This document shows, one piece after another, positions 2,436 to 44,588 of a DNA stretch of 64,000 bases. Origin of the DNA: Rhizophagus irregularis (taxonomy: Eukaryota); contig NC_089435.1 of assembly GCF_026210795.1 (NCBI RefSeq), positions 4,836,001-4,900,000 on the forward strand, written 5' to 3'. Numbering within the stretch: the first letter of the stretch is position 1; each line of letters opens with the position of its first letter. The notes below the pieces were generated by a model that was not told the origin of the DNA, ran no database searches, and saw only the letters and a program-made list of their open reading frames with translations. A program made the position numbers and the translations under genes.

Positions 2436-4313
2436 ATGAAAAATTTTATTTTGAAATTCGTGATTTTTATAATTTTACTTCATTTTATACTTGAAGTAAA
2501 CACTCAAGTTCCACCTGATGCCGGAACAACGCCTGCCGATGGAAAAGCACCTGCTGATGGTAAAGCGCCTGCGGATGGAAAAGCGCCTGTTGATGGAAAA
2601 GCACCGGCTGACGGAAAAGCGCCCGCTGATGGGAAAGCACCTGCTGATGGTAAAGCGCCTGCGGATGGAAAAGCGCCTGTTGATGGAAAAGCACCGGCTG
2701 ACGGAAAAGCGCCCGCTGCACCTGCTGATGGGAAAGCTCCAGCCGATGGTAAAGCTCCAGCCGATGGAAAAGCTCCAGCTGATGGAAAAGCTCCAGCTGA
2801 TGGAAAAGCACCTGATGATGGAAAAGCTCCAGCTGATGGAAAAGCGCCCGCTGATGGTAAAGCACCTGCTGATGGTAAAGCGCCTGCGGATGGAAAAGCG
2901 CCTGTTGATGGAAAAGCACCGGCTGACGGAAAAGCGCCCGCTGATGGTAAAGCACCTGCTGATGGGAAAGCTCCAGCCGATGGTAAAGCGCCCGCTGATG
3001 GTAAAGCACCTGCTGATGGAAAAGCTCCAGCCGATGGAAAAGCTCCAGCTGATGGAAAAGCGCCTGTTGATGGAAAAGCACCGGCTGACGGAAAAGCGCC
3101 CGCTGATGGTAAAGCACCTGCTGATGGGAAAGCTCCAGCCGATGGTAAAGCTCCAGCCGATGGTAAAGCTCCAGCCGATGGAAAAGCTCCAGAAGATGGA
3201 AAAGCACCTGCTGATGGAAAAGCTCCAGCTGATGGAAAAGCCCCAGCTGATGGAAAAGCCCCAGCTGATGGAAAAGCCCCAGCTAATGGAAAAGCTCCAG
3301 CTGACGGTAAAGCACCTGCTGATGGAAAAGCCCCAGAAAATGGAAAAGCTCCAGAAGATGGTAAAGCTCCAGCTGACGGTAAAGCACCTGCTGATGGTAA
3401 AGCACCTGTTGATGGTAAAGCACCTGTTGATGGAAAAGCTCCAGCTGATGGAAAAGCGCCTGTTGATGGAAAAGCGCCTGCCGATGGAAAAGCTCCAGCT
3501 GACGGTAAAGCTCCAGAAGATGGAAAAGCACCTGCTGATGGAAAAGCGCCAGAAGATGGAAAAGCGCCTGTTGATGGAAAAGCGCCTGCTGATGGAAAAG
3601 CACCAGTTGATGGAAAAGCTCCAGCTGATGGGAAAGCACCTGCTGATGGAAAAGCTCCAGCCGATGGAAAAGCGCCTGTTGCCGGAAAAGCACCTGATGA
3701 TGGAAAAGCGCCTGTTGATGGAAAAGCTCCAGCCGATAGAAAAGCACCTGCTGATGGAAAATTACCAGGTGCTGGGAAGGTGCCCGATTCTGGAAAGGTA
3801 CCTGATGTTGGAAAAGTACCAACTGGTGAAGGAAAATCAAAAGCAGAAACCAATGTAGAAGGAACTAAATCTACAAATGATATAGTTGTTGGAGGGATAG
3901 TTGGTGGTCTTGTTTTGATTGTTTTAACTGCTTTTTGTTTCTATTTAGTGAGAATTTATAAAAATAAAAGAGCAACTAAAGCAACTGATACAAATAATGA
4001 AGTAATTTTAAATCAAGGACAAGAATTTTTGCCAAGTTTTGAAAATCAACTGAAAAATCCCGGAAGAACGTATGATAACATGTTACCAACAGTTAATCCA
4101 TCATCTACGAAATTATTAAATTTAAATAAAGGGCAAGAATTCACACAATTGAACTTTGAAAATAATTCAATTAAACCTAGGAATCAAGGACAAGAATTCA
4201 CACAATTGAACTTTGAAAATGATTCAATTAAACCTAGGAATCAAGGACAAGAATTCAGACCTACACTCCCCGGTAAAAAGTATCCGACCACCCTAAAAAT
4301 TAAAAAATCTTAA
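2436..4313 (+). CDS. Type-I membrane protein: signal peptide, about 68 APADGK repeats, TM helix, NQGQEF-repeat cytoplasmic tail
   Basis: 625-aa ORF. Hydrophobic N-terminus ending EVNTQ, hexapeptide repeat, TM IVVGGIVGGLVLIVLTAFCFYLV followed by basic RIYKNKR, and four N(Q/K)GQEF motifs. The last ~15 codons come from an inserted MITE. Confidence 0.9.
   Translation: MKNFILKFVIFIILLHFILEVNTQVPPDAGTTPADGKAPADGKAPADGKAPVDGKAPADGKAPADGKAPADGKAPADGKAPVDGKAPADGKAPAAPADGKAPADGKAPADGKAPADGKAPADGKAPDDGKAPADGKAPADGKAPADGKAPADGKAPVDGKAPADGKAPADGKAPADGKAPADGKAPADGKAPADGKAPADGKAPADGKAPVDGKAPADGKAPADGKAPADGKAPADGKAPADGKAPADGKAPEDGKAPADGKAPADGKAPADGKAPADGKAPANGKAPADGKAPADGKAPENGKAPEDGKAPADGKAPADGKAPVDGKAPVDGKAPADGKAPVDGKAPADGKAPADGKAPEDGKAPADGKAPEDGKAPVDGKAPADGKAPVDGKAPADGKAPADGKAPADGKAPVAGKAPDDGKAPVDGKAPADRKAPADGKLPGAGKVPDSGKVPDVGKVPTGEGKSKAETNVEGTKSTNDIVVGGIVGGLVLIVLTAFCFYLVRIYKNKRATKATDTNNEVILNQGQEFLPSFENQLKNPGRTYDNMLPTVNPSSTKLLNLNKGQEFTQLNFENNSIKPRNQGQEFTQLNFENDSIKPRNQGQEFRPTLPGKKYPTTLKIKKS
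2530..3760 (+). repeat. 18-bp coding minisatellite (GCNCCNGCNGAYGGNAAA) encoding APADGK
   Basis: Tandem units vary mostly at third codon positions, which supports selection on the + frame of 2436..4313. Confidence 0.95.
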
Positions 4314-4962
4314 AAAATTCAGTGGGCCCAACAATAAATTTATATTTATTTTAAAAGTTTGAGACATGAGACACTTTTTAAAAGTGTTTTTTTAGCTTAA
4401 TTATTAGTAAAAATTCGCGGACATTTTTAATTCTAAAAATGGCAAAATTCTTAACTTTTTAACTAGAGCAGTTACGGCCAAATGAATTCCAGAAATCAAT
4501 TCTTTAACTAAAAAATAGCTTATGTTTAAAAAATCAGAAAGATTGGACTGGTAGTTGCCGAAAAATCCACCACTGAAGATCATAATTTTTATATGTAAAA
4601 ACGGTAAAATCACCATTTTTGCCAAATTTTAGTATAAAAATTATGATCTTCAGTGGTGGATTTTTCGGCAACTACCAGTCCAATCTTTCTGATTTTTTAA
4701 ACATAAGCTATTTTTTAGTCAAAGAATTGATTTCTGGAATTCATTTGGCCGTAACTGCTCTAGTTAAAAAGTTAAGAATTTTGCCATTTTTAGAATTAAA
4801 AATGTCCGCGAATTTTTACTAATAATTAAGCTAAAAAAACACTTTTAAAAAGTGTCTCATGTCTCAAACTTTTAAAATAAATATAAATTTATTGTTGGGC
4901 CCACTGAATTTTTTAAGATTTTTTAATTTTTAGGGTGGTCGGATACTTTTTACCGGGGAGTG
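4264..4962. mobile_element. Palindromic Tc1/mariner-type MITE (about 330-bp arms, TA TSD)
   Basis: ta|CACTCCCCGGTAAAAAG...CTTTTTACCGGGGAGTG|ta. Arms are nearly identical around a ~40-bp spacer near 4594-4634. Confidence 0.92.
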
Positions 4963-6961
4963 TACATATTATTACTGAGGAACTTATATCGGATACGAGC
5001 CATTTTCACACTCTAACACATTTGGCTATGCTATATTTTCATTGTTTAATATGGAGAGGGTAATAACGATAATAATTAAAAATCTTTTCTTTCTTATATT
5101 GATAAGATTAAGAAATAATTAATTGTATATATATAATGAGAGAATTTTTAATTCTTAATAGATTTATAGATGTCAACTAAATTTGACTAATGAATTCGGA
5201 ATTAAAGTTAATGAATTTTAATAGTCTGCTAAAACCCGAGATTAATGATAAGTACGATTAAAATACGACTATCTTAACAAGAATTAATAGATTTGGTAAA
5301 TAGTGTTATAACTCCAAATATAACTGAAGTTTATATCAACTTAATAAAGAATTTTCATAAACAGAAAGGTAATAAATAATATTAAGAAAATAATTTAGAG
5401 ATTCATAGTTATAAAGAAATTTAATAGCAAAGTAATATAATATGCTAAAACTATGATGTTGGCAATTTGGGTTTATGATTTTTAGTTTTTAAAATCTGTT
5501 AAAACTTATCATTTAATTAACATATTTATTCTTTGATAACCGATTGGTGACTCCGTGACTGATGACCTGTGTTAATTGTATGAATCACAATAATCTCAAT
5601 ATTTCAAGTTTTATAAAAATCTCGCGGTCTGTCTAGATTTTTACTATATAGGATAAGCAAGAATTTGAAGTAAAACTTGATGGAGACAATTTTTCATTGT
5701 TATTTTATTAATTTGTTAATTCTTATTAAGGATTTTTTGCGTTCATTTTATCAAATTTTATATTATCCTCTATTTCAAAGTCACGAGTTGAGTAAAAATT
5801 TTTGTTATTATAAATTTATAATAGCTATGATAAACTGATAATAGAGCAAAATGAGAGTGAAGTGAAGTGTTTTTACATGAATAAATTAATAGAATTTTAG
5901 TTGACTTTAAAATTAGAGAAAGGGAATTATACAATTTAACAAAATTACATAAAAAAAATTAATCTCACTTTTAATTTTTAAATTCAAAAAGATATACATA
6001 TTATATTTAACATTAAATATCTTTATGAAGTAACATGCAACTATTATTCAACCGTATAGTTACGCAAGTTGTAGTAATGGTTGCTATCGCACTATTATAA
6101 TTGTGATTCCATTATTCCATTTCAAAGGTTACCGTATTTTGCGGGCCACAGTACCACCCCAAAGAACTTCCATTTTCTACCGATTTTATTATTTAAAATA
6201 ATTTAATAAATAACCCAATTGTTTATACATTATCTACTAATAATAAAAACTCACGCAATGGCAGGTCAAAACCTCTGAAATTTGTATCATTGAATTTTTA
6301 TATTTTAAAAGAATTTCTAGTAATATGATTTTGTGCTCTTCTATTTAGTTAAAAAAGGATATCATTAACACTAATGATGTTAAATAGAAAGTTAAATAAA
6401 TAATAATTATTAAATAATCACTATACCTTCTGTTGCATTTTATGGTTCAGGTAAATTTCAAATTTATGAGTTTTACTTTTAAATGATTTACTGCTCGTGT
6501 TATTGTTTATTTCATTATCTATTTTTATTATTGATTGAGGTAATTCATTTGTTTATTTTGATAATATAATTTAATTTCTCTTATTTTTTCCAAAAGTATA
6601 ACAATGTTAGGTCTTTCTAATAGATTGGCATTCCAGCATTGTTCCATACCCGGATACTATGGCCCCCGTTATACGATAATAAGTAATTATAAATTGATTA
6701 TTTCGAAATTATATTCATATATTATTGATTGCAAAAAAAATTGGATTTATTTATTAAATTAATTTTTTGTGTAATAAATAATCTTTCTTAAAAAAAAAAA
6801 AGTGTTTCTACCTGAACTGAAATCGCATAAAATTTGTTAAAATTGTATAAATAATAATAATTTAACTAGCAATTACCAAAAGGATTTTCTAAAAAAGAAC
6901 CACCGAAAGAAGTCTAGTGTTCAGACCCGGGTTCTTAACGGGTAAACGGGTTGACCCATTA

Positions 6962-7728
6962 CAGCAAAATTCGAAATATAGTGGACACTTGAAAATTTTG
7001 ATTGTAGGGATTGTCGGGTACTCAGGTTACTCGGCTAGTGGGTTATTAGACAGAGTACTATATATGATGGCGTGGTAATTGTATATACTATATAATGTAA
7101 TTATGTTATATTAAAATTTAATTAAATATACCCGTGTTATTTTCTTTTGATTTTTTGTATGATGCCAAAATCAATACTAAATAAGCATTAACAGTTGAAA
7201 GGATTTTGAAAGGCTTATCATATAGAGAAGTATACATTTTTGACAAATATTTACATCATTTTGAGTTGGTAAAAGTTCGAAATATTAGCAAAAACCCAGT
7301 CAACAAATTCCGAGTCCAACACAACTTTTTGGTTTGTGGCACCTTTTTGTGTGAGGGGTCTGTGAACAAATTCTACTGCATAATTACGTTTAGCTTTTTT
7401 CCTCTTCCATATTACTTCTCTTGCTTGACAAGTGCATTTTTGATCATATGTGTTTTGACAATCTAAGCAAATAAGACAAATTGGACAGGCATTCAAACAA
7501 AATTCCAAAGAAAATGTCATTGTTCAATAAAAATCAAATAAAGTAATATTGTTGAAAAAAAGTTTAATTTATTAATTTATGTTATATTTGATATGTTTAC
7601 ATATTATACTCTATTATACTTTATACTACGCCATCATATATATATATGTCACGTGTTATATGTCTTTTCATAACGACAATCCCGACAATCACAATTTTCA
7701 AGTGTCCACTATATTTCGAATTTTGCTG
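6962..7728. mobile_element. Tc1/mariner-type MITE, TA TSD
   Basis: ta|CAGCAAAATTCGAAATATAGTGGACACTTGAAAATT...AATTTTCAAGTGTCCACTATATTTCGAATTTTGCTG|ta. Confidence 0.88.
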
Positions 7729-7781
7729 TAAAATTTAAAACCGTAAACCCGATATTAACGGATATCCGTTATAACTCGTTA

Positions 7782-8162: not shown

Positions 8163-9205
8163 ACTCGTTATAATAACGGGTTACGGGTCTGAAGTCTAAA
8201 CACTACTCTAAATGCACCCTCTAGTAGTTCAGTCCAAAGCTTATATAATCTCTAATTATTTTACTTCTATAAATGCACACCCTCTCTAAATGCACTATTT
8301 TGAAAATTATGCATATGGTCCAAGGGGTGCAATTATAAAGGTCTGACTGTAGTCCTTTTGTGAGTCTTTAGTGGTGATACTTTTGGTAGTAGCAGTTCTA
8401 TTTTAAAGAGGGTATACATAGTAGGTGCAATTATGGAGAGTGCAATTATAGATGTCTGACTGTATTACCAAAGCACTACTAAAAGAATCAGCAACAATAA
8501 CATCAGTAACATCACTGGGACCAGTAAAAACTCCGGAAAGTATGACATTTTCACCAGTTAGTAAGTCTAATAATGTTATTTTATATTAGTTGCTTTATAT
8601 TTCCATAACTACAACTTTTAAAATTAAGAGATTCCGATTTCAAACATAATCGAAAATAGATTTTTAAATGATAAGGAAACATATAATATATTTTTTTATT
8701 ATGAGCAAATAACTGCGTTTAACCGGAGGAAATCTTCTATAAATATAGGGGTCCTTTCAGCGGAGACATATAATAGAAATAAAAAAGAAATGTTGAAGCA
8801 TCCGGTACTATAAAAAAAATTATCAGCAGCTTCTCCAGCAAATTTAAGTCAAGGACGACATAATGAGTAATTCAATAGAAGCTGAATTTGTACAAAACCT
8901 TAAAGAGGAAATTATCAAAGATATTAAACAAGAAATGGCTCAAAGTAGTGAAAGTACAAGTCAATTTAATGTTTCTAGTTCATCAATTAATGTTGATAAA
9001 AAGTATAATAGATTAAATGAAACAAGAAATCCTAAAAGCAAGAATTAAGACAACATATCAGAGGTAATAGTAGTAATGATTAAAAAACAACTGAATTTGG
9101 TTATATGTCATTTTGTCCATGATGGTTTATTTTAAATTAGACATAATAATAAATGTTCAAAGTTAAATATTTTTTGAAATTCATTAATCTTTTTTAAGAT
9201 ACTAG

Positions 9206-9585: not shown

Positions 9586-12181
9586 TTAATCTTGTCTTGT
9601 ATTATTTTTTATATTATTATAACTCTCCTGCCTAACAACTTTAAGAATCTCATTTCTCAAATTTTGATTAATTTCTTGTTTGACAGCTTGAAGCATTTCA
9701 TCTTTAAAAGCTTGTAATGATAACCTTTCATCATTATAATTACTAACTACTGCTGGAGCTGAAATTGTTGGTTCATGATTAGTTATATTTACATTATTTT
9801 CATTTTCGGGTGTTTGCATAATTGCTTGCCCATGGTCATTAGCTGGAATTATTGTTGGTTCATGATTGGTTGTATTTTCATGATGATCATTAGCTGGAAT
9901 TATTGTTGGTTCATGATTGGTTGTATTTTCATTTTCGGGCGTTAGAATAATTTCTTGCCCATGATGATCATTAGCTGGAATTATTGTGGTTGTATTTTCA
10001 TTTCTAGGTATTTGAATAATTTCTTGCCCATTATTATTATTGATCACTTGTTCATAATTATGAATATCCCTTATGATAGGAAGCTCCTTTTCTTCTTGAC
10101 CATAATCATTGTAATTTTCATTTCCATGTATAGTACTTTGTTCTCGTTTATTTTTATTCCATTTGTATATCAAGAAACTTCCAACTGATAATAAAATACC
10201 ACCTAATAAAGTTCCCAAAACTGCACCAGTTGTATTGCTTAGATTATTTGATGGTAATGGTAATGGTGAAGGTGAAGGTGAAGGTGAAGGTGAAGGTGGT
10301 GGTGAAAGTGTTGATGGTGGTGTCGATGGTGGTGATGATGGTGGTGGTGATGATGGCGGTGGGGATGGCATTTTTGGATCAAACATTGATGTCCATATAT
10401 ATTCTTCATTATTACTGATATCAAGCAATAATATATCACTTTCAACTGTTTTATCATATTCATATCCTATTAAATCAAATTATTTTTTGTTAAAAAATTA
10501 ATTTGCTTAAGAATAATTAATATATTTGAAATATTATATTTACCAAATGATATAACCATATATTTTCCGATCACGTTTGCTTTATGATAAGCTCTAGGCT
10601 TTGGAATTTTTCCAGATATTTTTGGAACATACCAATTAAAATCATTTAAATCTAATACATAAAGTGAAGTATCTAAATATCCGGGATTATTAAAAATTCC
10701 TCCATAAATTATAATTCTCTGACCATCCAAACCTGTTAAATAATTGCATTTATCATTAATATTTTCTTTTTAATATTAATTATAATATTCTCATAATTCA
10801 TACCAAGAATGGCGGAAAAGCCACCTCTATTAGAAGGTATTTTTCCTGATGTTATCTAATTTCAGTAATAAAATTAATACACATATTTTATTTTAATAAT
10901 AGTTAATTTAATATTTTTACATAATAATTTGTATAACTTACTTTTGTATCCCAACTGTCATTGATCATATCATATATATAAACCTGTATAAATAATTTTT
11001 AAAATTAATTGATTTTTAGAAAAAAAAATTACATATCACAAAATTTACCTCATTTAATGTTAAAGCGGCACCTTGAATAATATTCAAAGTTTTCCTATCA
11101 AACTTAATAGTATCATCGTTCATACCGCCTAAACAATAAGCGTTCATTAATAAAATAACAGTAATTAAATAACGACTTACTAAAACATCATAGTATGTGA
11201 TTTCAAAAAAATTATAACTTAAACTAAACATGTTGTACTAATTAAAATTGCTCAGCACTCTTGAAAATGGTCAGAAAAAAGAATTTGAATAATACTATTT
11301 TTTTTGTACTAGACCACAGTTATATGATTTATGTATTTTTTATTTGTTACCTAACTTTTTATTCTATATTATTAATAGTCTAGCTGAGCTGATTCTATTA
11401 ATTTAATAATTATATTTCACAAAGTACTTAATGCTGAAGCATATACTTCGCTTAAGTTTTTTGATTTTTTTTTATTTCGCAAATTTGTTGAACACTGCAG
11501 TGTGAAATATAATTTTTGTTAAATAAATATATGTTCATAAAAAATTACTCGCTTACCTATGTAAATAATCTTATTATTGGGTAATAAGGCAGCACCATAA
11601 TTACATCTTGAACTTGGAGCATTAACTATACTTCCCATTTCCCAGTTAAGATTTATTGTGTCTAAAATAAGCATATTGTTTGAAATACCCACATCAATAT
11701 TTCCGCTCCATAAATAAAATTTTCCATTATTATAATTCATAACTCCTGTTAATTCATATTTTATGACCGTGTTAATTCCAGTTATTTTTGGAGGATTCCA
11801 TGCAATGTGTTGTGGGTCAAATGTGTAAACCAATGGCATTTTTGGATCATTCGAAAATCCACCGTATAAAAATAGTGTATTATTGTTTGCTCCACCTTTA
11901 GTTGTTGTTGCAGAATCATGTGGCGGAACCATATTAATATTTGATAAGTCTTGCCATGATAATTCTTGGGTATTGAATGGAACAGAAACATCAAGATAAA
12001 AAAACTCTTTTAATAGTTTTTCGTTTAAATCGGAACCACCCAAAATATACAATTTATCATCAATGAGCGTAGCAGTATGACGATGATGTACAAATGGCTT
12101 AAAAGGCGTCATTTGACAATTTACTTTAACTACTTGAAGTAGTATCCATAATATGAAATAAACTGAAGAATTTCTTGACAT
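9586..12181 (-). CDS. Intact 6-exon Kelch (galactose-oxidase-like beta-propeller) single-pass membrane protein
   Basis: Exons 12181-11557, 11128-11049, 10983-10942, 10855-10804, 10732-10544 and 10466-9586 are joined in frame by GT-AG introns. Signal peptide, Kelch motifs (HTATLIDDKLYILGG, LFLYGG, IIYIGG, IIIYGG), Pro/Ser stalk, TM GAVLGTLLGGILLSVGSFLIY, and a tail with HGQE repeats. Confidence 0.9.
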
Positions 12182-15280: not shown

Positions 15281-15454
15281 TAGTCCAATCTAACCTACTG
15301 CGCCACAGATTTTAAGGCGAAGGCGGTGTTGCAATATTCCAAAGACCGGCCGGAATTCTTCCCGTCTTCCAGTAATAAAGTTTTGATTACCTGATTTGGT
15401 ATTTTAAATAATGTTGACAAGGTCTGGGTAGTACCGACCGCATAACATCTTTAT

Positions 15455-16223
15455 CAGATGTTGAAATTATTTTGCCCGTAATAATTATAATTATTAGTAT
15501 TAATTATTGCTGGAGCTGGAATTGCTGGTTCGTAATTACTAGTTGTATCTTCATTTTGGAGCGTTCGCATAATTTCTTGCCCGTGTTCTGCCTCATAAGT
15601 AAAATTTTCCATTATAGTAATACAGTCAATAACACATGTTAAACATATTTTCTAATTGTATTAATTCCATTCATTTTTGAAATACTTCATACAATATTAC
15701 GTGAATTAAATAAATGTATAAACCAATGCCATAGTTGTTATTAGTCCATATAAAAATAGTTTATCATTATTTGCACCTTTAACTGATGCTGCAAAAAGAT
15801 ATGTTGTAACCCATATTAATATTTGATAAATCTTGCCATGATGATTGTTGAGTATTAAATGGTACAGAAACATCAATAAAAAAAAATTCTTTTAATAGTT
15901 TTATATTTTCAAAATGATGTACGCAGTTAAATTTGAATAAAAAAAAAAGAAACCCGAAACCCGGACGAAACCGGACGAAATATGGACAAAAAACGGATGA
16001 AACCCGGGCGAATATTGGTATTCGAATATACAATCACAAATAAACTGCGTACACTATTTTGAAAAAGGCGATAAATCCAATTCACCCAAAATATATAATT
16101 TATTATCAATGAGTGTAGCCGTATCGACTAGTATATAGTAGTACACTTTGTTTAAAGGGTGTAATTTGGCACTAATATTTGAAGTATCCATAATATGAAA
16201 TTAACTAAAGAATTTTTTGACAT
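15455..16223 (-). pseudogene. Kelch-receptor pseudogene with a large internal deletion
   Basis: ATG at 16223 is paralogous to 12181. LLKEFFFIDVSVPFNTQQSSWQDLSNINM is retained, with frameshifts. Exon-1 sequence runs directly into tail sequence (HGQEIMRTLQNE..EPAIPAPA). Confidence 0.85.
15922..16049. mobile_element. Small MITE with TA TSD inside the Kelch pseudogene
   Basis: ta|CGCAGTT...AACTGCG|ta with internal CCGGACGAAA repeats. Confidence 0.65.
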
Positions 16224-18470: not shown

Positions 18471-19298
18471 ATGAAAAAAATATTCATTTTGATTTTTATG
18501 ATTCTTATTATTTTACTTCAATTTATACATGAAGTAAATACTCAAGCTCCAGCAGATGTACCAGGTCCTCCACCAGAAGGAGCTGTACCATCACCGGCAA
18601 AGGCACCACCAGGAGGAGTTACTCCAGCAGGAACAGCTAGCCCACCACCATCAGCAGCATCAGCAGCATCAGCATCATCTTCAGCATCAGTGTCAGCATC
18701 ATCTTCAGCATCAGCGCCAGTGTCAGCAACTTCTGTAGATTCTTCAATTCCTTCAAATATAATAGCTGCTTCAATTATTGGAGGGATAGTTAGTGGTTTA
18801 ATTTTAATCTTCCTAGTTGGGTTATGCTACTTTTTAGTGAGAATGTATAAAAATAAAAAAGAAAGTTCTAAAGCAATTGCGACTCCTGGGAATGAAAATA
18901 ATAATAATATTTCAAATCCTGGAATCATGAATGATGATTTATATCATAACAAGATGTTACCTATTCCCATAGAATTAGTAATTCCAAATCAAGGACAAGA
19001 ACTTGCACCAAATTATAACAATCAACAAGGAGCAACACGCGAATTAGGAAACAACTCAGTAGATAATGAAACTATTCAAAATATTAGACAAGAAATGGTT
19101 CATAATTTAAGTCAAGATCCAGCAAGAAATTTATCATCATTTAATATCGATGAAGATATTATAAATCAAATGAAACAAGACATTCTACTAGATATTAAAC
19201 AAGAATTGAAGCAGAATATAAGGTCAAAAGTAATGACATCGTTTTATAAAGATAATATTGATGATAATAGTAGTAGTAATAGCAATGTTAATAAATAA
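18471..19298 (+). CDS. Type-I membrane protein with a short Pro/Ala/Ser ectodomain and NQGQE/helical tail
   Basis: 275-aa intronless ORF. Signal peptide ..ILLQFIHEVNTQ, TM IIAASIIGGIVSGLILIFLVGLCYFLV, tail NQGQE and INQMKQDILLDIKQELKQNI. Confidence 0.88.
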   Translation: MKKIFILIFMILIILLQFIHEVNTQAPADVPGPPPEGAVPSPAKAPPGGVTPAGTASPPPSAASAASASSSASVSASSSASAPVSATSVDSSIPSNIIAASIIGGIVSGLILIFLVGLCYFLVRMYKNKKESSKAIATPGNENNNNISNPGIMNDDLYHNKMLPIPIELVIPNQGQELAPNYNNQQGATRELGNNSVDNETIQNIRQEMVHNLSQDPARNLSSFNIDEDIINQMKQDILLDIKQELKQNIRSKVMTSFYKDNIDDNSSSNSNVNK

Positions 19299-20269
19299 TA
19301 TATTTATTTTATGAACAAATTATTCCCACCATCTTACTATAAGAGAGTGAACACCCAAAAATTCCAAGTCAAAAAAAAAAAAGTTAAACTGAATGAGGTA
19401 CATAATTATATAAAGTTTAACACCTAAAGATTATTATATATATAAAAAAATATTATTAATGTAGTCGTCGTTTTAATATAATTTATATAAATGGAAATAA
19501 AAAAACATCATCATAAAATAGTAAATAAATGAAAAAATATTATAATGCAACTAACTAAGTTTTTCGGTAATACGAGATATCAAATAAAAATTCAAATAAA
19601 ATTTTAGATGGGAAGTAGCATCACAGTTTATTAGAGAATTAATTAATAATAGAAATGATTAAAAAAAAAATATATAATAATCGCAAATTACCTTCAGATA
19701 TTTAAAATAACTTTACCTTCACAATTTGGTTAATTAATTGTTTCTTATTTTAATCAGGGATCATATTACAAATTCATTTTTTTAAAAATTTTAAAATTAT
19801 AACTTTGATCTTCTCTTTATTTTTAAATTACGTTTCATATCCAGTCAAAGTAAAAAACTGCAATATTTGACCGTATATAAAAAGCAATTGGCTAAAAGTC
19901 AACGCACCTTTTTCTCTGTTTTATAATGCAAGGACAAAAGTTTTCTCATCATAGTCGATAGTCGATTCCGTGTAACAGTTCGTTGAATAATTTAGACTAC
20001 CCCAGCGTGACCTATGGCCAGCATTTACGCATTTTGACTGAAAACCGATGACGTAATTTTCTCTCAGAATCACGTGGTCAGTAAGTCTAAAATAATTTAG
20101 AAAAGAATGAAGCGACTTGCTATCGAATTCTTTTTAGGGTGAGGCGAGATATATAGCATGTGTTAAAAATATACGAATATAGTGTATGTTATTTAAAAAA
20201 CTGGTTGTTACCATATTATTGAAAATACTGTGTAAACAATTGAATATCAATAACTTGACTTGTATTATT

Positions 20270-20500
20270 TTTTATAATATTATACTTATTAAAATTCTCT
20301 CCAATAGCTTGAAGAATTTTTCAACTTTTAGACAATTTCTTGTTTAATAAATTGAAGAATTTCGATGATAACCTATTATTATTAAGTATTAAAATTACTT
20401 CTCGCTCATAATTATAATTATTAGTATTAACTACTGCTGGAGCTGGAATTGTTGGTTCGTGATTAGTTTTGGAGCGTCTGCACCCATTAGCTGGAATTAT
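20270..20500 (-). pseudogene. Relic of a Kelch-receptor cytoplasmic tail
   Basis: Reads NHEPTIPAPAVVNTNNYNYEREVI..NNRLSS and matches 32441-32660 at the nucleotide level. Confidence 0.75.
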
Positions 20501-21167: not shown

Positions 21168-21939
21168 ATGAAAAAAATATTTATTTTGATTTTTATAATT
21201 TTTATAATCTTACTTCAATTTATACATGAAGTAAATACTCAAGCTCCAGCAGATGTACCAGGTCCTCCACCAGAAGGAGCTGTACCATCACCGGCAAAGG
21301 CACCACCAGGAGGAGTTACTCCAGCAGGAACAGCTAGCCCACCACCATCAGCAGCATCAGCATCATCTTCAGCATCAGCGCCAGTGTCAGCAACTTCTGT
21401 AGATTCTTCAATTCCTTCAAATATAATAGCTGCTTCAATTATTGGAGGGATAGTTAGTGGTTTAATTTTAATCTTCCTAGTTGGGTTATGCTACTTTTTA
21501 GTGAGAATGTATAAAAATAAACAAGAAAATTCTAAAGCAATTACAACCCATGGACTGAATAATGTCAAAAGTAAAAAAAAATATTTCAAATCCTGGAATA
21601 ATGAATGATGAATTATATAATGAACCGATCCCTACAGAATTAATAATTTCGAATCATGGACAAGAATTTATACCAAATTCACCAAATTATAATAATCAAC
21701 AAGGGACAACACGTGAATTAGGAAACAACTCAACAGATAATGAAATTATTCAAAAAATCAGACAAGAAAATTTATCATCAAAATTTAATATTGATGAAAA
21801 TATTATAGATCAAATGAAACAAGATATTCTACAAGACATTAAACAAGAATTAAAACAAAATATTAGATCAAAAGTGATGACATCATTATATAAGGATAAT
21901 AATGATGAAGATAGTGGTAGTAATATAAATGATAAATAA
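21168..21939 (+). CDS. Paralog of 18471..19298 with a +1 frameshift in an A9 run (pseudogene or sequencing error)
   Basis: ORFs 21168..21608 and 21562..21939 together match the whole paralog. Removing one A at about 21573-21581 restores ..SKKNISNPGIMND.. Confidence 0.8.
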
Positions 21940-22554
21940 TATAAGGTTATGCAGAGTCATTTTATTATGGCTAAATAATATTCTTTAGGAACACTCGCGT
22001 TTGGTAATCTACGTGAATTACTTGAATGTTTATTTATAATTTATAATCATTATGTAATAAATAGTTTTTTATTGATAAGACATTAAGTGAATATTAATAC
22101 ATAAAGTTTAACACCTCGAGTTAATCTTATAAATAAAAATATTGTGGCATATAATTTGATTTTTGATTGATAAACTTTTTTCATATTTGACTAAGATGAT
22201 TATCTTATAGTAATCATAGTTTTAATATTAAATAAATTATATTCCTTTTGTTATCGGTGAACTAAGATATTCAAAATAAATTGATCTTACCCTTACAATT
22301 TATTTGATTCGATTTATTGGTATATGAGTTTAATTCGCTTTTTATGATTTTTATTTTAGTCAAGAATTCAGGCAAGAAATGTTAAATATAATTCGGAAAA
22401 AAGAAGTCATTGCGAAATGTTGCATTTTTAAATAAAATTATATACGTATAAATACTATTTACTAGTGATAATTTAAAACACAAAGCGGACTTAAGTCAGT
22501 TCATTCAATAATATTAGTTCAGACCGAGTAAGTCGTTCCCCATCCTAATATCTA

Positions 22555-22830
22555 CTCCATAACCATTGCCATGTTTGATCAATTGTCAAGTGTTGTGAAT
22601 CCCCATACAAAATAGCTAGTGTATCATTTTTGCACCACCTTTAACTGATGTTGCAGAAATATGAGTGTATACTTTTGATGCTTGTTCCTATCCACATATA
22701 ATTTATTATCAACGAGTGTAGCAGCATGACGGCGTGACACACTTGGCTTAAGGGTGTCATTTGACGATTTACTTTAACTAATACTTGAATTAGTATCCAT
22801 AATATAAAATCACTGAAAAATTTCTTGAAT
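22555..22830 (-). pseudogene. Relic of Kelch-receptor exon 1
   Basis: Matches 12181-11800 with deletions (RRHAATLVDNKLYMWIG). The upstream non-coding block is conserved as well. Confidence 0.75.
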
Positions 22831-24456: not shown

Positions 24457-24458
24457 GT

Positions 24459-30188: not shown

Positions 30189-30572
30189 TATAGGTGTCGT
30201 CGAAATTAATTACGGATTTTACCACGGTTACGGCACGTGCCGCATTGCCGACCGTAAAAACCGTAAAATTTTATTAAGGCATTAAGTTCGGCCAGAGTTA
30301 AATGATCTTCGCGATAATTTCCTTTTTTGGAATATGGTGTAACCATTGTGTAACTCGATTCTCCATTTTTGATGGGAAGCAAAATTTCCTTTTATGGAAA
30401 TCTGTGTAACGTCACGTGATATAACAACAAAATTCGGCCGGCATTACCGGCATTACCGGCATTATAAACCTATTTACGGCATTACGGATAATTTACGGAT
30501 TTCGCCGAATTAATTACGGTATAGCCGAAATGCCAAAATTGCCGTAATTCATGAATTTCGACGACAAGTATA
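30189..30572. mobile_element. hAT MITE, 8-bp TSD CTGTTGAG, present only in the right foldback arm
   Basis: ctgttgag|TATAGGTGTCGTCGAAATT...AATTTCGACGACAAGTATA|ctgttgag. The empty site is visible in the left arm near 27132-27140. Confidence 0.92.
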
Positions 30573-33500
30573 CTGTTGAGTTTAGAATAAATATCCAGTC
30601 AAAAGTTATAAAATTGCCTTATTTGTAATTAAATGTTGGTAAGTTATATGAACCAATCAGATCTCGTAGTGCGTTGCAAGAACCACTTCACGTGATAAAG
30701 TACTCAATGGTATGCAGGTAACCAGTTTTTGCAATAAATAGAACGATTTGGCCAGAATTATATTTAATTCGGACCGGTGGTCAAACAATATAATTTATAA
30801 GCTGAAAGTTTCTGCACAAAATTTCATTTAAGAAACTGCCCATGAAATTTGATTGGTTTATATAAAATGGACAATTTTTGTCAATGATTTGATGAAATTT
30901 GATTGGTTTATATAAAGCGGACAATTTTGTCCATGATTTGATGAAATTTGATTGGTTTATATAAAGCGGACGAATTTTGATGAATTTTGATTGGCACATA
31001 TAAAAGCGGACAATTTTGTCGTGATTTGATGAAATTTGATTGGCTTATATAAAGCGGACAATTTTGTCCATGATTTGATGAAATTTGATTGGCTCAATAT
31101 AAAGCGGACAATTTTATCCGTTGATTTGATGAAATTTGATTAGGTTCATATAAAACAGACAATTTTGTCATGATTTGATGAAATTTGATTGGCTCATATA
31201 AAATGAACAATTTTGTCATTGATTTGATGAAATTTGATTGGTTTCATATAAATAAAACGGACAATTTTGTCAGCTGATTTGATGAAATTTGATTCGGTAC
31301 CGTATAAACGGACGATTTTGTCAGCTGATTTGATGAAATTTGATTGGCTCATATAAAACGGACAATTTTGTCCATGATTTGATGAAATTTGATTGGCTCA
31401 TATAAACCGGACAATTTTGTCAATGATTTGATGAAATTTGATTGGCTCATATAAACCGGACAATTTTGTCCATGATTTGATGAAATTTGATTGGCTCATA
31501 TAAAATGGACAATTTTGTCTATGATTTGATGAAATTTGATTGGCTCATATAAAACAGACAATTTTGTTCAGCCAAATTAACTTAATTCTGGCCGGTTACT
31601 TTAATTTTGGCCAGAAATTACTGCACATTAGGTAAATGATTTGATGAAATTTGATTGGTTCATATAAAAACGGACAATTTTGTCCATTAGGTAAACGATT
31701 TGATGAAATTTGATTGGTTCATATAAAATGGGCAATTTTGTCCATTAGGTAAATAATTTGATGAAATTTGATTGGTTCATATAAAACAAAAATTACTGCG
31801 CATTGGGTAATAAAGGAATTGATGGAATTTAATTGAACGAATTATTAGACAGAAACTGGTCGGCCAGAATTAGCTTAATTCTGGCTATAATGATTTCAAC
31901 TTCAGTCAGAATTACTGTGTAACCTTAAAATTTTTTTTGACTTTTTTTGGTTATTAGGTAGTACAAATTTATATCAATGCAATCCTCGCATGCTGGTTTA
32001 TAGGCAAATCTGCATTCAGAAATTATAGAATTACTTTATTTAGCCGATATAAACCAACTAAGTATTAGCCAATCAAATCCCATGGGCAAATCTGCCCATG
32101 GGCAGTTTCTTAGCTGAGGTTTTGTGCACGAAGTTTCAGCTTATAAACTATGTCGATCATTTGGATTGGGTGATTTCTAAATAAAGTTGCACTTCGTTAA
32201 AAAAAAAAATATATAATAATATATATTTTGGATAGTATCATACGTATTTGGAGATTTCAGTCGACTGCAGATCGATAATAATGTGAGATATAAGCATATA
32301 GTAAATATTTTCGTTAAAAGATTTACACATATTTGGTACATTATATATTTAAAGAAAAAAATTTATTTCATCATTATATTATTTTCATATTTATCATTAA
32401 ATATAATAAAATAACAATTAACTATTAATTTAATCTTGTATTATTTTTTGTTATTAAAATTCTCCTCTCTAACAGCTTGAAGAATTTCATTTTTCAAATT
32501 TTGGCCAATTTCTTGTTTAATGGCTTGAAGAATTTCTTCTTTTAAAAGTTGTGATGATATCCTATTATTATTAGGATTAGATGTTGAAATTACTTCTTGC
32601 CCATAATTAAAATTATTAGTATTAACTATTGCAGGAGCTGGAATTGTTGGTTCGAATGGTTCGTGATCACTAGTATTTTCATTTTGGAGCGTTTGCATAA
32701 TTTCTTGCCCATGATGACAATCATTGACTGGAATGATTATTGGTTCATGGTTGGTTGTATTTTCATTTTCAGGTGCTAGAATAATTTCTTGCTTATGATA
32801 GTTATTCTTATTAATTATTGGAGGTGGAATTATTATTGGTTCATAGTTGGATATACTTTTATTTCTAGATATTTGGTTAATTTGAATAGTAGCTTCTTGC
32901 TCATTACTATTGATATCTTGTTCATAATTATGAATATTCCTTATGATAGGGAGCTCCTTTTCTTCTTGACTGTAATCATTATTATTATCATTTTCATGAA
33001 TAGTTTTTTGTTTATTTTTATTCCATTTATATATCAAGAAACTTCCAACTGATAATAAAATGCTACTCAATAAAGATCCAACAACTATACCAGCTATATT
33101 GCCTGAATTATTTGGTGGTGATGAAGAAGAAAGTGAAGATGAAGGTGAAGGAGAAGGTACTAGTGAAGGTGGTGGTAATGGTGGCAGTGTTGATGGTGGT
33201 ATTGGTGGTGGTGGCGATGGCATTTTTGGATCAAATATCGTTGTCCATATATATTCCTCATTATTACTAATATCAAGCAATAATATATCACTTTCAACTG
33301 TTTTATCATAACCAACTCCTATTAAATCAAATTGTTTTTGTTAAAACTAGTTAATTTGCTTAAGTAATAGTAAGGAGTATTATATTTACCAAATGATACA
33401 ACCATATATTTTCCAATTACATCTGCTTTATGAAAAACTCTAGGTCTTGGGATTTTCCCAGAAATTTTTGGAATGTACCAATTATAATTAGCTAAATCTA

Positions 33501-34369
33501 ATACGTAAAGTGTAGTATCTAAATATCCAGGATTTATAAAATATCCTCCAAAAATTATGATTCTTTTACCATCTAAACCTGTTAAAATATAATGGAAATT
33601 TACCATTACTGACTACTAATATTAATCTTTTAATAATAATCGTAGACTTCTCATTTGATTACATACCTAGAATAGTGGTAAAAGCGCCTCTATTAGAAGG
33701 GATTTTTCCTGACGTTACCTAATTTTAGCAATAATGTTATTTATTACACAATTTTTAATATATTTATATAATAATAATTTATATAATTTACTTTTGTTTC
33801 CCAATTGTCATTGATCGTATCATATATATAAACCTAAATAAATAACTTTATCTTAATTAATTGATTATTAAAAAAATTTATACATTACAAAATTTACCTC
33901 ACTTAATGTTAAAGCGGTACCTTGACCAATATTTAATGATTTTGTATCAAATATAATTTCATTACCATTCCTACCACCTAAACAATAAGCGTTCATTAAT
34001 AAAATAACAAAACATATTTAAATAAATATATAACATAGAAATTACTCTCTTACCTATATAAATAATCTTATTATTGGGTAATAAAGTGGCACCATATCTA
34101 TCTCTCGGAGTTGGTGCATTAATTATACTTCCTTTACCCCAGTTAAGATTTATTGTATCTAAAATACACTGGTCGAAATAGTCCAAATCGGCTAGAAATT
34201 GGATGTCCGATTTTAGGCTGAATTTGGTGATAAAGATGGCCGATTTATTAATTTAGGCAAAGTTCCGATTGGCAGGCCGATCAACGCTGATCAGAATATC
34301 CAAATTGTATCTGAATTGCTTAGTATTTTTGATCCGAATTGTTTAAAAAAATATATTCATAAATTTACC

Positions 34370-37240: not shown

Positions 37241-37319
37241 TTTATATTCACTCAATATTCGTTTAAAAAATCGAAGCGGGTTCAATATCGTCATATCGTC
37301 CTATTTATAAATTTAAAAA

Positions 37320-39032: not shown

Positions 39033-42000
39033 ATGAGCAGAAAAAGGTCAGTCTCTAGTATACTTGACGATCTTGATGATGAAGAATCACCTTCAAATCA
39101 GCCATCTTCTACTCGTAGAAATAGATCAATTTCTGGTATAATAAACGAAGAAATAGTATCTTCTGCTGGACCAACAAGTAATAAAAGAAAACTAGTAGTT
39201 TGTAATTGTCCTGATTGTGATGGCAACTTGGTGGATTCTCGCACAAAAGAAATTCACGATTCTAGACATTAAGAATACCAAGATTCGCAAGGTACAATTT
39301 TGTCTCAAGTTCGTCAACTTGAAATAGGTGAAACATCAATACCCGCTTCAGCTGGACGAATGATTGATGAATCTATTAGACAAGAATCGGAAAAATCAGA
39401 TAACAGTAATCAAGATGATGTTGATGATGAACATCAAGATGTCGAATTTAACTTCTTACCTCGACAACGTGCAAGAAAGTATACAAATCATCCAGAAATT
39501 TCAGAAGATCCAGAAGATTCATCATCATCCGAATATACTACAGAGGAAGATATCTACAGTGATACATTGTCTATAGGCAGTGAATCAGATAATGATCCAA
39601 TTTCTGGAATTTCTGAAATTTTTGAAGACTATTCACCACCTAGTTATGAACCATTTCAAAACCCACCATATTTAGAATCGAATTATGATCGATTTTTATG
39701 GATTTTACTTTGGATAATGAACTTTCGAACAAGATTTAATATCGCAAAGACAGCTACTGAGACTCTAATAAAATTTATGAAATTGGCCCTGTGCGAGTTC
39801 AGTAGTGACGATTTTAATGATTTCCCAGATTCGCTTTACTTAACAAGAAAGAAGCTTGGATTAAATGACCAATTTCATAGTTTTGTACCTTGTCCGAAAT
39901 GTCACAAATTATATAAAAAAGAGGAAGTGGTAGATTTCAAACAAGAGGACAATCCTGCTATAATGAAATGTCAACACATAGAATTTCCCAATTCTTCAGT
40001 TCACAAATTACGTCTTTGCAATACGGCATTATCTGAAAAAATTAGCACATCGACAAATTGAACAATAATACGACCTAATTTAATGTATCCGTTTGCTGGA
40101 ATCAATCAAGAACTTGCCACTATGTTTTGTCGGTCTGGGTTTGAAAATTCTCTCTGACATTGGGCTAATCGGTCGAATTTTGATAATATTTTGACCGATA
40201 TATATGATGGGCAAGTGTGGAAGAATTTTAAAGAATCGGACAATGAAGATTCGCCAAATTTTTTCAGAAGTGAAGTGGCCGATTCTCATCTTGGCTTTAT
40301 GCTGAATCTTGATTGGTTTCAGCCATATGATAGTACCATTTATAGTATCAGTGTCATATACGCCGCTATATGCAATTTGCCACGCGATATTCGATTTAGA
40401 CGTGAAAATTTATTGACTCTCGGCATTTTACCTGGGCCAAAGGAGGTCAGCCTACATAAAGTGAACCACTATTTAGCACCAATAGTTAACAAATTGGAAA
40501 CACTCTAGGTTGGGTTAACACTAAATCGTACTTATGAATGCGAAAATGGAAAGAGAGTTCGTGGCGCTTTAATCTTAGTATCATGTGACATTCCCGCTGC
40601 AAGAAAAATTTGCGGTCATGTTTCTGCCTTAGTTTCATGTCACAGGTGTGAGAAAAAAGCAAATTATGAAAATGGGCAGCATAATTTTGCTGGAATGGAT
40701 GATGTAAGGTAAGGTTGCTTGCCGAAATCAAGTAGTTTAGGCCAAGGCCGAAACTTTTTTAAAACCGAAAATTTAGGCAATTAAAAGTAAATTTGCCGAA
40801 ATTATACAATGCCGAAACTTTTACTGAAAGGCCGAAATTTGGCCGAAATTATTGGCCAACATTAATACTATAATTCTGGCCGGAATAATGATCGACATGT
40901 AAATTTCCTTTTATGGAAATTTGTGTAACATTTGTGCGACACATTTCTCCGATTTTACTGGGAAACAAAATTTCCTTTTTTGGATATTTGTGTAACGTCA
41001 CGTGACACAATATCATAATTTCGGCCGAATTTTAATTTTGGCCAAAATTAAGACCGAGTTTCGGCCTAATTTCGGCATTTTCGGCATTTGATTTGATTGG
41101 CCGAAACCTTTCGGAATTTCCTTTTTAGTTTCGGCAGGCAACCTTAATGTAGGGTATTCTGCTTGAGATTCGAATGAGCACCGGCAAAACGCATTAGGTT
41201 GGCGAAGATGCAACTCAGACACTGCTAGAAAGCGCTTCGTCAAAGAAACTGGCGTTAGATAGTCCGAATTGTTGCATCTATCATATTTCGACTCTATTAG
41301 ATTTATTACAGTCGATCCAATGCATTGCTTATTTCTGGGCATTGCGAAGTGGATAGTAAAACGAATTTGGATCGATAGGGGTATTTTGACACCAAATTCT
41401 TTGAACAAAATTCAGAAAAAGATGGACGAGTTTCAGATACCATCCGATTTAGGTCGAATTCCAGGAAAAATTCATAGTGGAGAGGGATTCACCAATTTTA
41501 CGGCCAATCAGTGGCAAATATTCTTTACAATTTATTCAACTGTATCACTTTGGGAACACCTTTCAGACGTAGATAGAAGAATCCTGAATCATTTTGTCAG
41601 AGTTTGTTCGATTTTGGTAAATCGGATTCTAGAATCTAATTTGGTGGATGAAGCCCATAGAAGTCTTATCGAAATAGTCAAGCTCATTGAGAATCACCAC
41701 GGCAGAAATAAGATCACACTGAATCTTCATCTTTCTCTGCATTTGCGTGATTGCTCATCTGATTATGGACCATTATATGCGTTCTGGTGTTTCTCTTTCG
41801 AACATATGAACGGTATTTTAGGTAAATATCCGTTAATGATTTTTTAACGATTTTAACGATTTCAATATTAGCTTATAATTTATTGATTTCGCACTTTTAG
41901 GTTCGTTACCAAACAGCAACAGGAAAATTGAGTCTGAACTTATGCGTCGATTAATGTTTGATAAACAAATCGAAAATATCATAAGTTCAGGTATCGAAGT

Positions 42001-42732: not shown

Positions 42733-42864
42733 AACTTATAAGTTTTAGACATAAATTTATAATAAATTGAGTAATTGACTATAAATTTTGTGTTGATTTT
42801 TCCGAATTTCTGAATTTTAATGACAAATCATGTTTTTCAAAAGTTAATTTTGATGACTTTTTTT

Positions 42865-43610
42865 GTATCAATCAGCCGTCAATCAAATATAATGATTTTT
42901 TGCCGAATTTTTATTGAATTTTTATTGAATTTTTATTGAATTATCAATTTTCCATAAATCGGAAGTACATATTTGAATATTGGGTAAATTTTAGGTTGAT
43001 TTGTCATTTTGTCTGATTTTTTTTTGATTTCAACCAGCATCAATCACCGTCAATCAAATATAATGATTTTTTGCCAAATTTTTATCAAATTTTTATTGAA
43101 TTTTTATTGAATTGTCAATTTTCCATAAATCGGAAGTACATATTTAAATATTGGGTAAATTTTAGGTTGATTTGTCATTTTGTCTGATTTTTTTTTTGAT
43201 TTCAACCAACATCAATCAGCCGTCAATCAAATATAATGATTTTTTGCCAAATTTTTATCAAATTTTTATTGAATTTTTATTGAATTGTCAATTTTCCATA
43301 AATTGGAAGTACATATTTGAATATTGGGTAAATTTTAGGTTGATTTGTCATTTTGTCTGATTTTTTTTTTTATTTCAACCAGCATCAATCAGCCGTCAAT
43401 CAAATATAATGATTTTTTTCTGGATTTTTATCAAATTTTTATTGAATTTTTATTGAATTGTCAATTTTCCATAAATTGGAAGTTCATATTTGAATATTGG
43501 GCAAATTTTAGGTTGATTTGCCATTTGTCTGATTTTTTTTTTGATTTCAACTAGCATTTATCAGCCGTCAATCAAATATGATGATTTTTTTCTGGATTTT
43601 CATTAAATTG
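42865..43610. repeat. About 172-bp tandem repeat (4+ copies), right subterminal region of the CACTA element
   Basis: ATCAATCAGCCGTCAATCAAATATAATGATTTTT recurs near 42867, 43038, 43211, 43384 and 43559. Confidence 0.9.
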
Positions 43611-44588
43611 TCCGATTGGCATCAATCAGATGTGCTGATTTGTAATGTCAGTCGATTTTGGTCTGATTTTTAGCTGATTTTCCATATGTCTGATTTTTTT
43701 GATTTCGACTAGTAATAAGCATTTCACCTCCACCCCATAAATACATCCTTCCGTCGTTATTAATAATGCCTGTTAAACTCCATTTTCTAATTGCATTAAC
43801 TCCAGCTATTTTTGGAATACTTCACACAACACTTTGTGAATCAAATGCATATACCAATGCCATTGTTTGATCAGTTGTGAGTCCTCTGTATAAAAATAGT
43901 GTATCATTATTTGGACCACCTTTAACTGATATTGCAGAAGAATGAGGTGGAACCATATTAATATTTGATAAATCTTGCCATGATAATTCTTGAGTATTAA
44001 ATGGTACAGAAACATCAAGGTAAAAAAATTCATTTATTTGTTTTTTGTTTAAATCATATCCATCCAAAATATATAATTTATTATCAATGAGTGTAGCAGT
44101 ATGACGACTATATACATTTGGTTTAAAGGGCGTCATTTGACAATTTACTTTAACCAATGCTTGAAGTAATATCCATAATATGAAATAAACCAAAGGATTT
44201 CTTGACATAATCGTAATTTATTTAATAGTAGAAATGAATAATATTAATATTTAAGAAAAAATATTTATTCACTTTTTAAAAAAAGAATTTTACGGTATTT
44301 AAATTTTTAGCATTACACTTAGCAAAAACATGGTTGCATAGAACGGATTATAATATTCAAGTATTTATTTTTCACAACAATATAATTAATGCACACCCAC
44401 ATACCCTATGCAAATTTATTAGCACAATTTCCATATGTGTTGCATAAAATCATAAGATAATGATTCAATAATGCTAAAACGTTACCCAAATAATTAAATT
44501 AATTTTTTGGCTTGAAAATACGCTGTGCAAAAAAGATGATCCAATAAGAAATAAATTGTTACGATGTTTGTGATCAACAATTAATTAA

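What the first reader, a model, noticed from the sequence alone, without database searches (positions are those of the whole stretch)
2436..44208. Clustered receptor family with one chassis and swapped ectodomains (Kelch, APADGK repeat, short stalk)
Seen: about nine genes or relics. Where those parts survive, they share a homologous signal peptide (ILL[Q/H]..[E/K]VN[T/C]Q), a Gly-rich TM followed by YK..KNK, and Asn-rich tails with xxGQE motifs. Most also have a terminal helix repeat (ILQAIKQEIGQNLKNEILQAVREE; MKQDILLDIKQELKQNI). Ectodomains are unrelated: an intron-containing Kelch propeller, about 68 APADGK repeats, or a ~70-aa Pro/Ala/Ser stalk in intronless genes. There is no kinase or other catalytic domain. 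Inference: a birth-and-death array of non-catalytic surface receptors signalling through a shared adaptor-binding or oligomerising tail. The Kelch-less members could be decoys, co-receptors or wall sensors, with a possible role in non-self, symbiosis or anastomosis recognition.
Basis: partly seen in the sequence, partly recalled or inferred. Interest (0 to 1): 0.85.

Follow-up and report, generated by a model that had tools for sequence, protein, structure and literature searches.

The report
Mycorrhizal surface proteins sharing one tail
A root-symbiotic fungus carries a cluster of seven related membrane-protein genes, two of them intact, that share a signal peptide, membrane anchor and inner tail but carry different outer parts, some likely captured from known cell-wall proteins, and they likely work as non-enzymatic surface sensors grouped by a helix at the tail's end.

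Summary
The family is real but holds seven loci, not nine. One Kelch gene is split by a 9.5-kb CACTA transposon, and the APADGK gene has lost its tail end to insertions. Only G2 (Kelch) and G4 (short stalk) are intact. Signal-peptide and tail similarity between Kelch and non-Kelch members beats composition-preserving shuffles, and a stalk-only profile finds Kelch relatives at E 3.5e-7. The membrane segment alone is weaker, and G2 itself is linked only through relatives. The ectodomains are not all unrelated: APADGK is the repeat of the GPI-anchored AGL wall proteins, and the short stalk matches AGL3 (12/13 residues) and AGL5 (11/12). One relative carries an ML lipid-binding domain. Stalk paralogues exchange ectodomains and tails. 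The terminal helix has a period-4 hydrophobic stripe, and its best PDB match is the VASP tetramerisation domain (E 0.019, weak). Best reading: a Glomeraceae family of non-catalytic surface sensors, Wsc/Mid2-like in design, in which a Kelch receptor chassis captured AGL and ML ectodomains. Expression, oligomerisation and signalling are untested. Ten paper searches found no description of the family, and the scan had not noted it on other DNA.

The parts
2436..4313 (+). G1: intronless type I membrane protein, 625 aa: signal peptide, about 68 APADGK-type repeats (2532-3761), TM (about 3882-3950), tail with four GQE motifs; the last 17 codons come from the inserted foldback; no terminal helix
   Evidence: signal cleavage after residue 23 and no GPI signal were reported for a public model with the same N-terminus
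4262..4964 (.). Foldback element (348-nt arms, 98% complementary) that starts where G1 tail homology stops
8851..9062 (+). Decayed stalk-type tail end with two helix repeats, 2 frameshifts and 1 stop; inferred severed end of G1
9586..12181 (-). G2: intact Kelch-propeller type I membrane protein, 622 aa; exons 11557-12181, 11049-11128, 10942-10983, 10804-10855, 10544-10732, 9586-10466
15453..16223 (-). G3: Kelch-type relic; decayed 5' end, internal deletion, piece of tail
18471..19298 (+). G4: intact intronless short-stalk protein, 275 aa; stalk residues 33-45 and 50-61 match AGL3 and AGL5; terminal helix at about 19140-19250
20235..20497 (-). G5 tail relic (Kelch type), probably the 3' end of the relic at 22550-22828
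21168..21939 (+). G6: short-stalk paralogue, frameshifted at an A9 run (21573-21581); 5' half nearly identical to G4, tail diverged
   Evidence: near-identical relative P0001 is in frame
22550..22828 (-). G5 5' relic (Kelch type: signal peptide and first blade, decayed)
32441..34166 (-). G7 3' part: rest of Kelch propeller, stalk, TM, tail, terminal helix
34167..43714 (.). CACTA-type transposon, 9548 bp, inside G7 exon 1: 13-bp terminal inverted repeats, 3-bp target duplication, Transposase_21 piece at 40158-40505
43715..44208 (-). G7 5' part: signal peptide and first blades, premature stop at 43822-43824

Best explanation
These seven loci are one family of single-pass membrane proteins of Glomeraceae fungi that share a signal peptide, transmembrane segment and cytoplasmic tail, in which a likely ancestral Kelch-propeller gene likely had its outer domain replaced by sequence from AGL wall proteins, and which likely act as non-enzymatic surface sensors predicted to be clustered by the helix at the end of the tail. 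Shown: common chassis, lineage range, turnover by transposons and recombination, non-catalytic Kelch fold, AGL-like stretches, ML-domain relative. Inferred steps: (1) secretion and cleavage leave an N-terminal Gln; (2) the propeller binds an unknown ligand, the AGL-type rod spans or sticks to the wall, the ML domain binds lipid; (3) GxxxG motifs in the TM and the period-4 terminal helix form right-handed bundles, possibly mixing paralogues; (4) the disordered tail (TPG site, repeated xGQE) recruits a cytoplasmic partner, as Wsc/Mid2 tails recruit Rom2. G1, lacking the helix, would be a membrane-tethered AGL-like spacer or adhesin.
For: Homology: cross-type tail scores exceed 0 of 1140 and 0 of 750 shuffles, both global and in 10-aa windows. 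hhalign probabilities 84% (tail), 93% (signal peptide), 94% (TM). G4 signal-peptide DNA beats 1000 of 1000 codon shuffles against G2 and G7. A stalk-only profile scores 2 of 79 Kelch proteins at E<1e-3 on a 1.84-billion scale, and 32 of 79 above the best of 1580 shuffles. TPG follows the TM in 7 of 26 Kelch rows and 6 of 13 stalk rows (counted by eye). Both types have helix period 4.0-4.1 with 2-3% of the power at 3.5. Real genes: 28 stalk-type relatives in four named species; dN/dS 0.26 for G4/G6 tails, 0.39 for G2/G7 exon 1, pN/pS 0.21 among G1 repeats. Mixed Kelch and stalk clusters recur by locus tag on three other contigs. AGL link: 12/13 aa and 32/39 nt with RiAGL3, 11/12 aa with RiAGL5 (by eye); in R. 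clarus, Kelch member RclHR1_06920001 and RcAGL1 RclHR1_06920006 share a scaffold number. ML relative P0025 groups with the stalk clade, 99/98. Helix: best PDB match is the VASP tetramerisation domain; Pfam VASP_tetra in 11 of 21 tails. Fold.
Against: A direct search with the G4 TM+tail found none of 734 long candidates at E<=1, and G2 scores only 3-4 bits per stretch on the stalk profile, so the window's own Kelch genes are linked through divergent relatives that a mixed profile had collected (selection bias). TM cross-scores are not significant in one direction. G1 signal peptide versus Kelch DNA is marginal (13 and 15 of 1000). The VASP match is weak (E 0.019; 1 of 21 above the Pfam cut-off), and period 4.0 differs from VASP's 15-residue repeat. 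The tree has 38 columns and no root, so Kelch-first is not shown. The AGL match was judged by eye in low-complexity sequence. The ML fusion rests on one unnamed record. dN/dS is 0.69 for the G2/G7 last exon and 0.95 for G1/G4 TM-tail (poorly alignable). Five of seven loci are damaged. No expression, ligand or partner data.
Confidence: 0.5

Rival explanations
1. Structural tethers or adhesins: same family and history, but the proteins only anchor wall or matrix material to the membrane, and the tail helix serves clustering or trafficking, not signalling.
For: AGL repeats form polyproline II helices and self-assemble (PMC8786786). G1 stays open for 625 codons without the helix while its severed end has 2 frameshifts and a stop. 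No signalling domain is present.
Against: Tails of 145-400 aa with a conserved helix and a TPG site are kept across genera. A Kelch propeller and an ML domain are binding modules rather than rods. GPI-anchored AGLs already offer the tether role.
Confidence: 0.25
2. Only the Kelch genes matter; stalk and APADGK genes are short-lived by-products of recombination in a transposon-rich accessory region.
For: [quoted passage not shown]
Against: Stalk-type genes are intact in three Rhizophagus species and present in Glomus; tail dN/dS 0.26; helix residues 90% or more conserved over 32 rows.
Confidence: 0.1
3. Immune or cell-death receptors: the tail helix is a homotypic module that recruits a cytoplasmic MACPF/kinase effector carrying the same helix.
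For: One unnamed 900-aa protein has a 69-residue copy of the Kelch-type tail end (65% identical to G7) inside a MACPF-like protein that ends in a kinase-like stretch.
Against: Single record, 1 of 46 hits; none among the 59 representatives scanned by Pfam. The copy sits within the MACPF domain, which looks like a chance insertion or a chimeric contig.
Confidence: 0.07
4. Two unrelated families (Kelch-TM and stalk-TM) that sit together and look alike through shared composition and generic signal, TM and amphipathic features.
For: One search found nothing; weak TM scores; the stalk clade is separated by a long, well-supported branch.
Against: Three separate segments match in the same order, at protein and DNA level, above shuffles. 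Database-scale E 3.5e-7. The ML-type tail hits both types in the window. Shared non-heptad period.
Confidence: 0.06

Closest known systems
Rhizophagus AGL proteins RiAGL1, RiAGL3, RiAGL5 (PMC8786786)
   Same: APADGK repeat (RiAGL1, RiAGL5); two non-repeat stretches shared with G4/G6; N-terminal Gln after the signal peptide; Pro/Gly/Ala-rich and clustered
   Different: AGLs are under 200 aa, GPI-anchored, with one intron after a different signal peptide and no cytoplasmic part. G1, G4 and G6 are intronless with TM and tail; G1 has about 68 repeats against 11.
Yeast Wsc1-3, Mid2 and Mtl1 wall mechanosensors (PMC6685044)
   Same: Signal peptide, extended extracellular rod, one TM, non-catalytic tail; different head groups on one design
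   Different: No WSC domain; Mid2 family only E 0.011 in one relative, below cut-off; no known Rom2 link; tails end in a conserved period-4 helix
High-copy Kelch-like genes of R. irregularis, labelled 'galactose oxidase' in databases (PMC8647823)
   Same: G2 is one of them (identical to P0059)
   Different: The passages read treat them only as a domain class; the fold matches binding propellers (LZTR1, KLHDC2/3), not galactose oxidase
Ena/VASP tetramerisation domain (PDB 1USE; PMC4721544)
   Same: C-terminal helix with the same spacing of hydrophobic and KQE/EL residues; VASP paralogues form mixed tetramers through it
   Different: Weak score; 16-residue versus 15-residue repeat; no EVH1/EVH2 domains; probably convergent; oligomer state here unknown
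Attractin/MEGF8 (recalled; Pfam PF24981 hit)
   Same: Extracellular Kelch propeller on a single-pass protein
   Different: No CUB, EGF or PSI domains in Pfam scans; unrelated tail

Membership tests
AGL proteins | ER signal and N-terminal Gln | tested here: met
   cleavage site reported in supplement S3
AGL proteins | Pro+Gly+Ala of 40% or more in the mature extracellular part | tested here: met
   G1 60%, G4 53%
AGL proteins | C-terminal GPI signal and size under about 200 aa | tested here: not met
   internal TM followed by a tail of 120-150 aa; 625 and 275 aa
AGL proteins | Single intron after the signal peptide | tested here: not met
   continuous ORFs
Wsc/Mid2 sensors | Type I topology with non-catalytic tail | tested here: met
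Wsc/Mid2 sensors | WSC domain or Mid2 family domain | tested here: not met
   absent; Mid2 E 0.011, below cut-off, in 1 of 6 proteins
Wsc/Mid2 sensors | Tail activates Rom2/Rho1 | not testable with these tools
   needs interaction assays
Galactose oxidase | Sequence or fold match to solved galactose oxidases | tested here: not met
   0 of 27 PDB sequence hits and none of the listed Foldseek rows
Galactose oxidase | Copper-site residues and the C-terminal domain after the propeller (recalled) | tested here: inconclusive
   the propeller runs straight into a Pro/Ser stalk and TM; residues were not mapped one by one
Kelch-repeat propeller proteins | Kelch repeats forming a beta-propeller | tested here: met
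   Pfam E 2e-46; 267 residues with pLDDT >= 90; Foldseek E 8e-19 to LZTR1
VASP tetramerisation domain | Pfam PF08776 above cut-off | tested here: inconclusive
   1 of 21 above cut-off (summed repeats), 10 more below; window proteins E 0.011-0.052 in 3 of 4
VASP tetramerisation domain | 15-residue repeat | tested here: not met
   best period 4.0-4.1; one-residue gap in the alignment
Receptor kinases | Cytoplasmic kinase domain | tested here: not met

The most novel reading that the evidence does not exclude
AM fungi have a modular, recombining surface-receptor system of their own: one right-handed oligomerising tail is fused to Kelch, lipid-binding ML or captured AGL ectodomains, turning GPI-anchored wall proteins into signalling sensors, and paralogues assemble as mixed oligomers whose make-up differs between strains and underlies self, host or wall-state recognition.
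Probability: 0.2. Interest if true: 0.85.

Novelty: new variant of a known kind. Interest (0 to 1): 0.58.

Why it matters
How AM fungi sense host, wall and self at the surface is largely open, and secretome pipelines discard TM proteins (PMC5293756), so this class is easily missed. The family offers concrete candidates (G2, G4), a testable assembly module, and an apparent case of a GPI-anchored wall protein gaining a cytoplasmic tail by domain capture. It also corrects database labels: 'galactose oxidase' for the Kelch members, and a truncated public model for G1.

Tried and rejected
No whole genome was held, so there is no genome-wide census. No RNA evidence was obtained, so expression is open. 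Complex prediction of four copies of the G4 helix gave no verdict. The structure model of the ML relative was low-confidence outside TM and tail helices, and its PDB sequence search was empty. The Atlas search with the G4 tail gave no hit at 0.9 or above. The exact G1 protein is not in the collection. I first read G1 codons (Asp GAT 56 of 63) against RiAGL1 (GAC 100%) as independent origin, then dropped this because RiAGL5 repeats use both codons; the origin of the G1 repeat is unresolved. A full-tail tree was abandoned as unalignable; the 38-column tree neither rejects nor shows one non-Kelch clade (p-AU 0.6). Rejected: nine genes; galactose oxidase; P0171 as a member (bacterial-like repeat protein, E 7e-4). 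Earlier scan notes were unrelated. PMC535362 is not held; PMC10197012 passages gave nothing relevant.
Full report
Setting. The window is AT-rich and transposon-rich. Its proteins match Rhizophagus records; the spliced G2 is identical to P0059, named R. irregularis. No genome was held.

Inventory. Motif scans, self-comparison and translation give seven loci. G1 (+2436-4313) has a signal peptide, 67.8 18-bp repeats, a TM and a tail that stops matching relatives at 4262, where a 703-bp foldback begins. A stalk-type tail end with two frameshifts and a stop lies at 8851-9062; that it is G1's severed end is inferred. G2 (-12181..9586) is intact with five GT-AG introns. G3 and G5 are Kelch relics, and G6 lies on the other strand between the two G5 pieces. 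G4 (+18471-19298) is intact. G6 is frameshifted at an A9 run, while the near-identical P0001 is in frame, so this may be an allele or an assembly error. G7 is one gene cut by a 9548-bp element with 13-bp inverted ends, a 3-bp target duplication and a Transposase_21 piece, and it also has a premature stop.

Is the chassis homologous? Searches gave 28 stalk-type proteins and 46 proteins with the Kelch-type tail, 45 of them Kelch. Using 25 of 28 and 38 of 45 tails, each type's profile scored the other above every shuffle at the median (0 of 1140, 0 of 750). Signal peptides passed (1-11 of 630-1080). The TM passed in one direction only (3 and 74 of 1140; 341 and 380 of 750). hhalign gave 84-94%. 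At DNA level, G4 signal and TM beat all 1000 codon shuffles against G2 and G7; the helix pairs gave 0, 1 and 14 of 1000, and G1's signal gave 13 and 15. A mixed TM+tail profile found 107 of 1.84 billion representatives; 35 carry a propeller or its last blade, one is a bacterial-like false positive, and most others are fragments. A profile from 19 stalk rows alone scored 2 of 79 Kelch proteins at E<1e-3, 16 at E<1, and 32 above the best of 1580 shuffles. Against this: one search found nothing among 734 long candidates, G2 itself is not significant on that profile, and the best Kelch hits had been collected by a stalk-rich profile. Homology is well supported but runs through divergent relatives, many of which keep the TPG site after the TM that G2 and G7 lack (7 of 26 Kelch rows, 6 of 13 stalk rows, by eye).

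Range. Named members are Rhizophagus, Glomus and Funneliformis (6 of 10 clusters named, 0 of 10). Kelch and stalk genes have neighbouring locus tags on three other contigs: C1646_765765/765767/765768, RhiirC2_828473/828476 and 20576/20580-20583.

Ectodomains. G2 folds as a Kelch propeller, then a low-confidence stalk, a TM helix (409-443), a disordered tail and a helix (574-618). Nearest structures are binding propellers, and galactose oxidase does not appear. APADGK is the published repeat of RiAGL1 and RiAGL5, GPI-anchored wall proteins (PMC8786786; I saw the abstract, passages, Results parts 1-2, section 21, Discussion part 2, searches of all 8 supplements, rows of file 3 and part 2 of 9 of file 2). 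Its Table S3 lists a truncated public model with G1's N-terminus as a BLAST hit, ER signal yes and GPI no; the main text has no mention of 'transmembrane' or 'kelch'. The G4 stalk matches RiAGL3 at 12 of 13 residues (32 of 39 nt, six of seven changes silent) and RiAGL5 at 11 of 12 (by eye; no computed null). In R. clarus, a Kelch member and RcAGL1 carry the same scaffold number. AGLs have their own signal peptide and an intron; the stalk genes have the Kelch-type signal and no intron. Capture of AGL exon 2 into the chassis is therefore my inference. P0025 carries an ML domain (Pfam E 5e-4, below cut-off; Atlas 0.90, 29 of 30 hits) behind a different signal peptide, on a stalk-type TM (99/98); it is one unnamed record.

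Exchange and selection. G4 and G6 differ by dS 0.03 in the 5' half and 0.43 in the tail. P0002 has a G6-type front (signal and TM 100%) with a tail 99% like P0016, and P0013 has the reverse. Both come from one annotation, so misassembly is possible. dN/dS is 0.26 for G4/G6 tails, 0.39 for G2/G7 exon 1, 0.69 for their last exon and 0.95 for G1/G4; pN/pS among 31 distinct G1 repeat units is 0.21.

The terminal helix. In both types the hydrophobic period is 4.0-4.1, not heptad. The best PDB match of the family profile is the VASP tetramerisation domain (E 0.019; 13 of 17 hits fall on this helix). Pfam VASP_tetra appears in 11 of 21 tails, once above cut-off. [quoted passage not shown] This is a lead for oligomerisation, probably convergent, and is not shown.

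Mechanism. The design parallels yeast Wsc/Mid2 sensors: varied head, rod, one TM and a non-catalytic tail (PMC6685044, passages). I put non-catalytic clustered sensors at 0.5, structural tethers at 0.25, by-products at 0.1, a MACPF-linked immune pathway at 0.07 and unrelated families at 0.06. GxxxG-driven TM association, TPG phosphorylation and pyroglutamate formation are recalled general knowledge, untested here.

Novelty. Kelch-like expansion near transposons is known (PMC8647823, passages); ML and Kelch secreted proteins are noted in PMC5293756 (passages), whose pipeline excluded TM proteins. Searches (listings only, apart from the papers named) showed no account of this family; one search was for VASP. 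Subscription papers and bioRxiv supplements were not visible and may bear on this. Verdict: a real, apparently undescribed Glomeraceae membrane-protein family with domain capture; function inferred.

Noticed in passing
P0074 residues 415-483: A copy of the Kelch-type tail end and helix sits in frame inside a MACPF-like protein that ends in a kinase-like stretch; single unnamed record.
   Followed up: partly
L001 2-972: Stalk-type gene from a metagenome contig with a PADGK motif near its open 5' end, four helix repeats and a frameshifted tail.
   Followed up: partly
window 25422-32185: Large inverted-repeat element (arms of about 1.7 kb at 84% identity, 49-bp subterminal repeats) around a 13-19% GC core that is itself an inverted duplication.
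   Followed up: no
window 4262-4964: Near-perfect 703-bp foldback, 98% complementary arms, no target duplication recognised.
   Followed up: partly
window 6931-7759: MITE-like element with 86-nt inverted ends; one public gene model (P0060) splices its ORF piece onto the G2 C-terminus.
   Followed up: no
window 58602-62492: Intact-looking 1296-aa reverse-transcriptase ORF (RVT_1 E 4e-26); a 453-bp piece is copied at 44840-45292 with 99% identity.
   Followed up: no
window 51251-55256: Fragmented P-element/THAP9-like transposase (TNP-like RNase H domains).
   Followed up: no
window 36590-38510: Inside the CACTA element: a 147-bp coding repeat (236-aa charged ORF) and an 89-bp array of 13 copies with small palindromes.
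   Followed up: no
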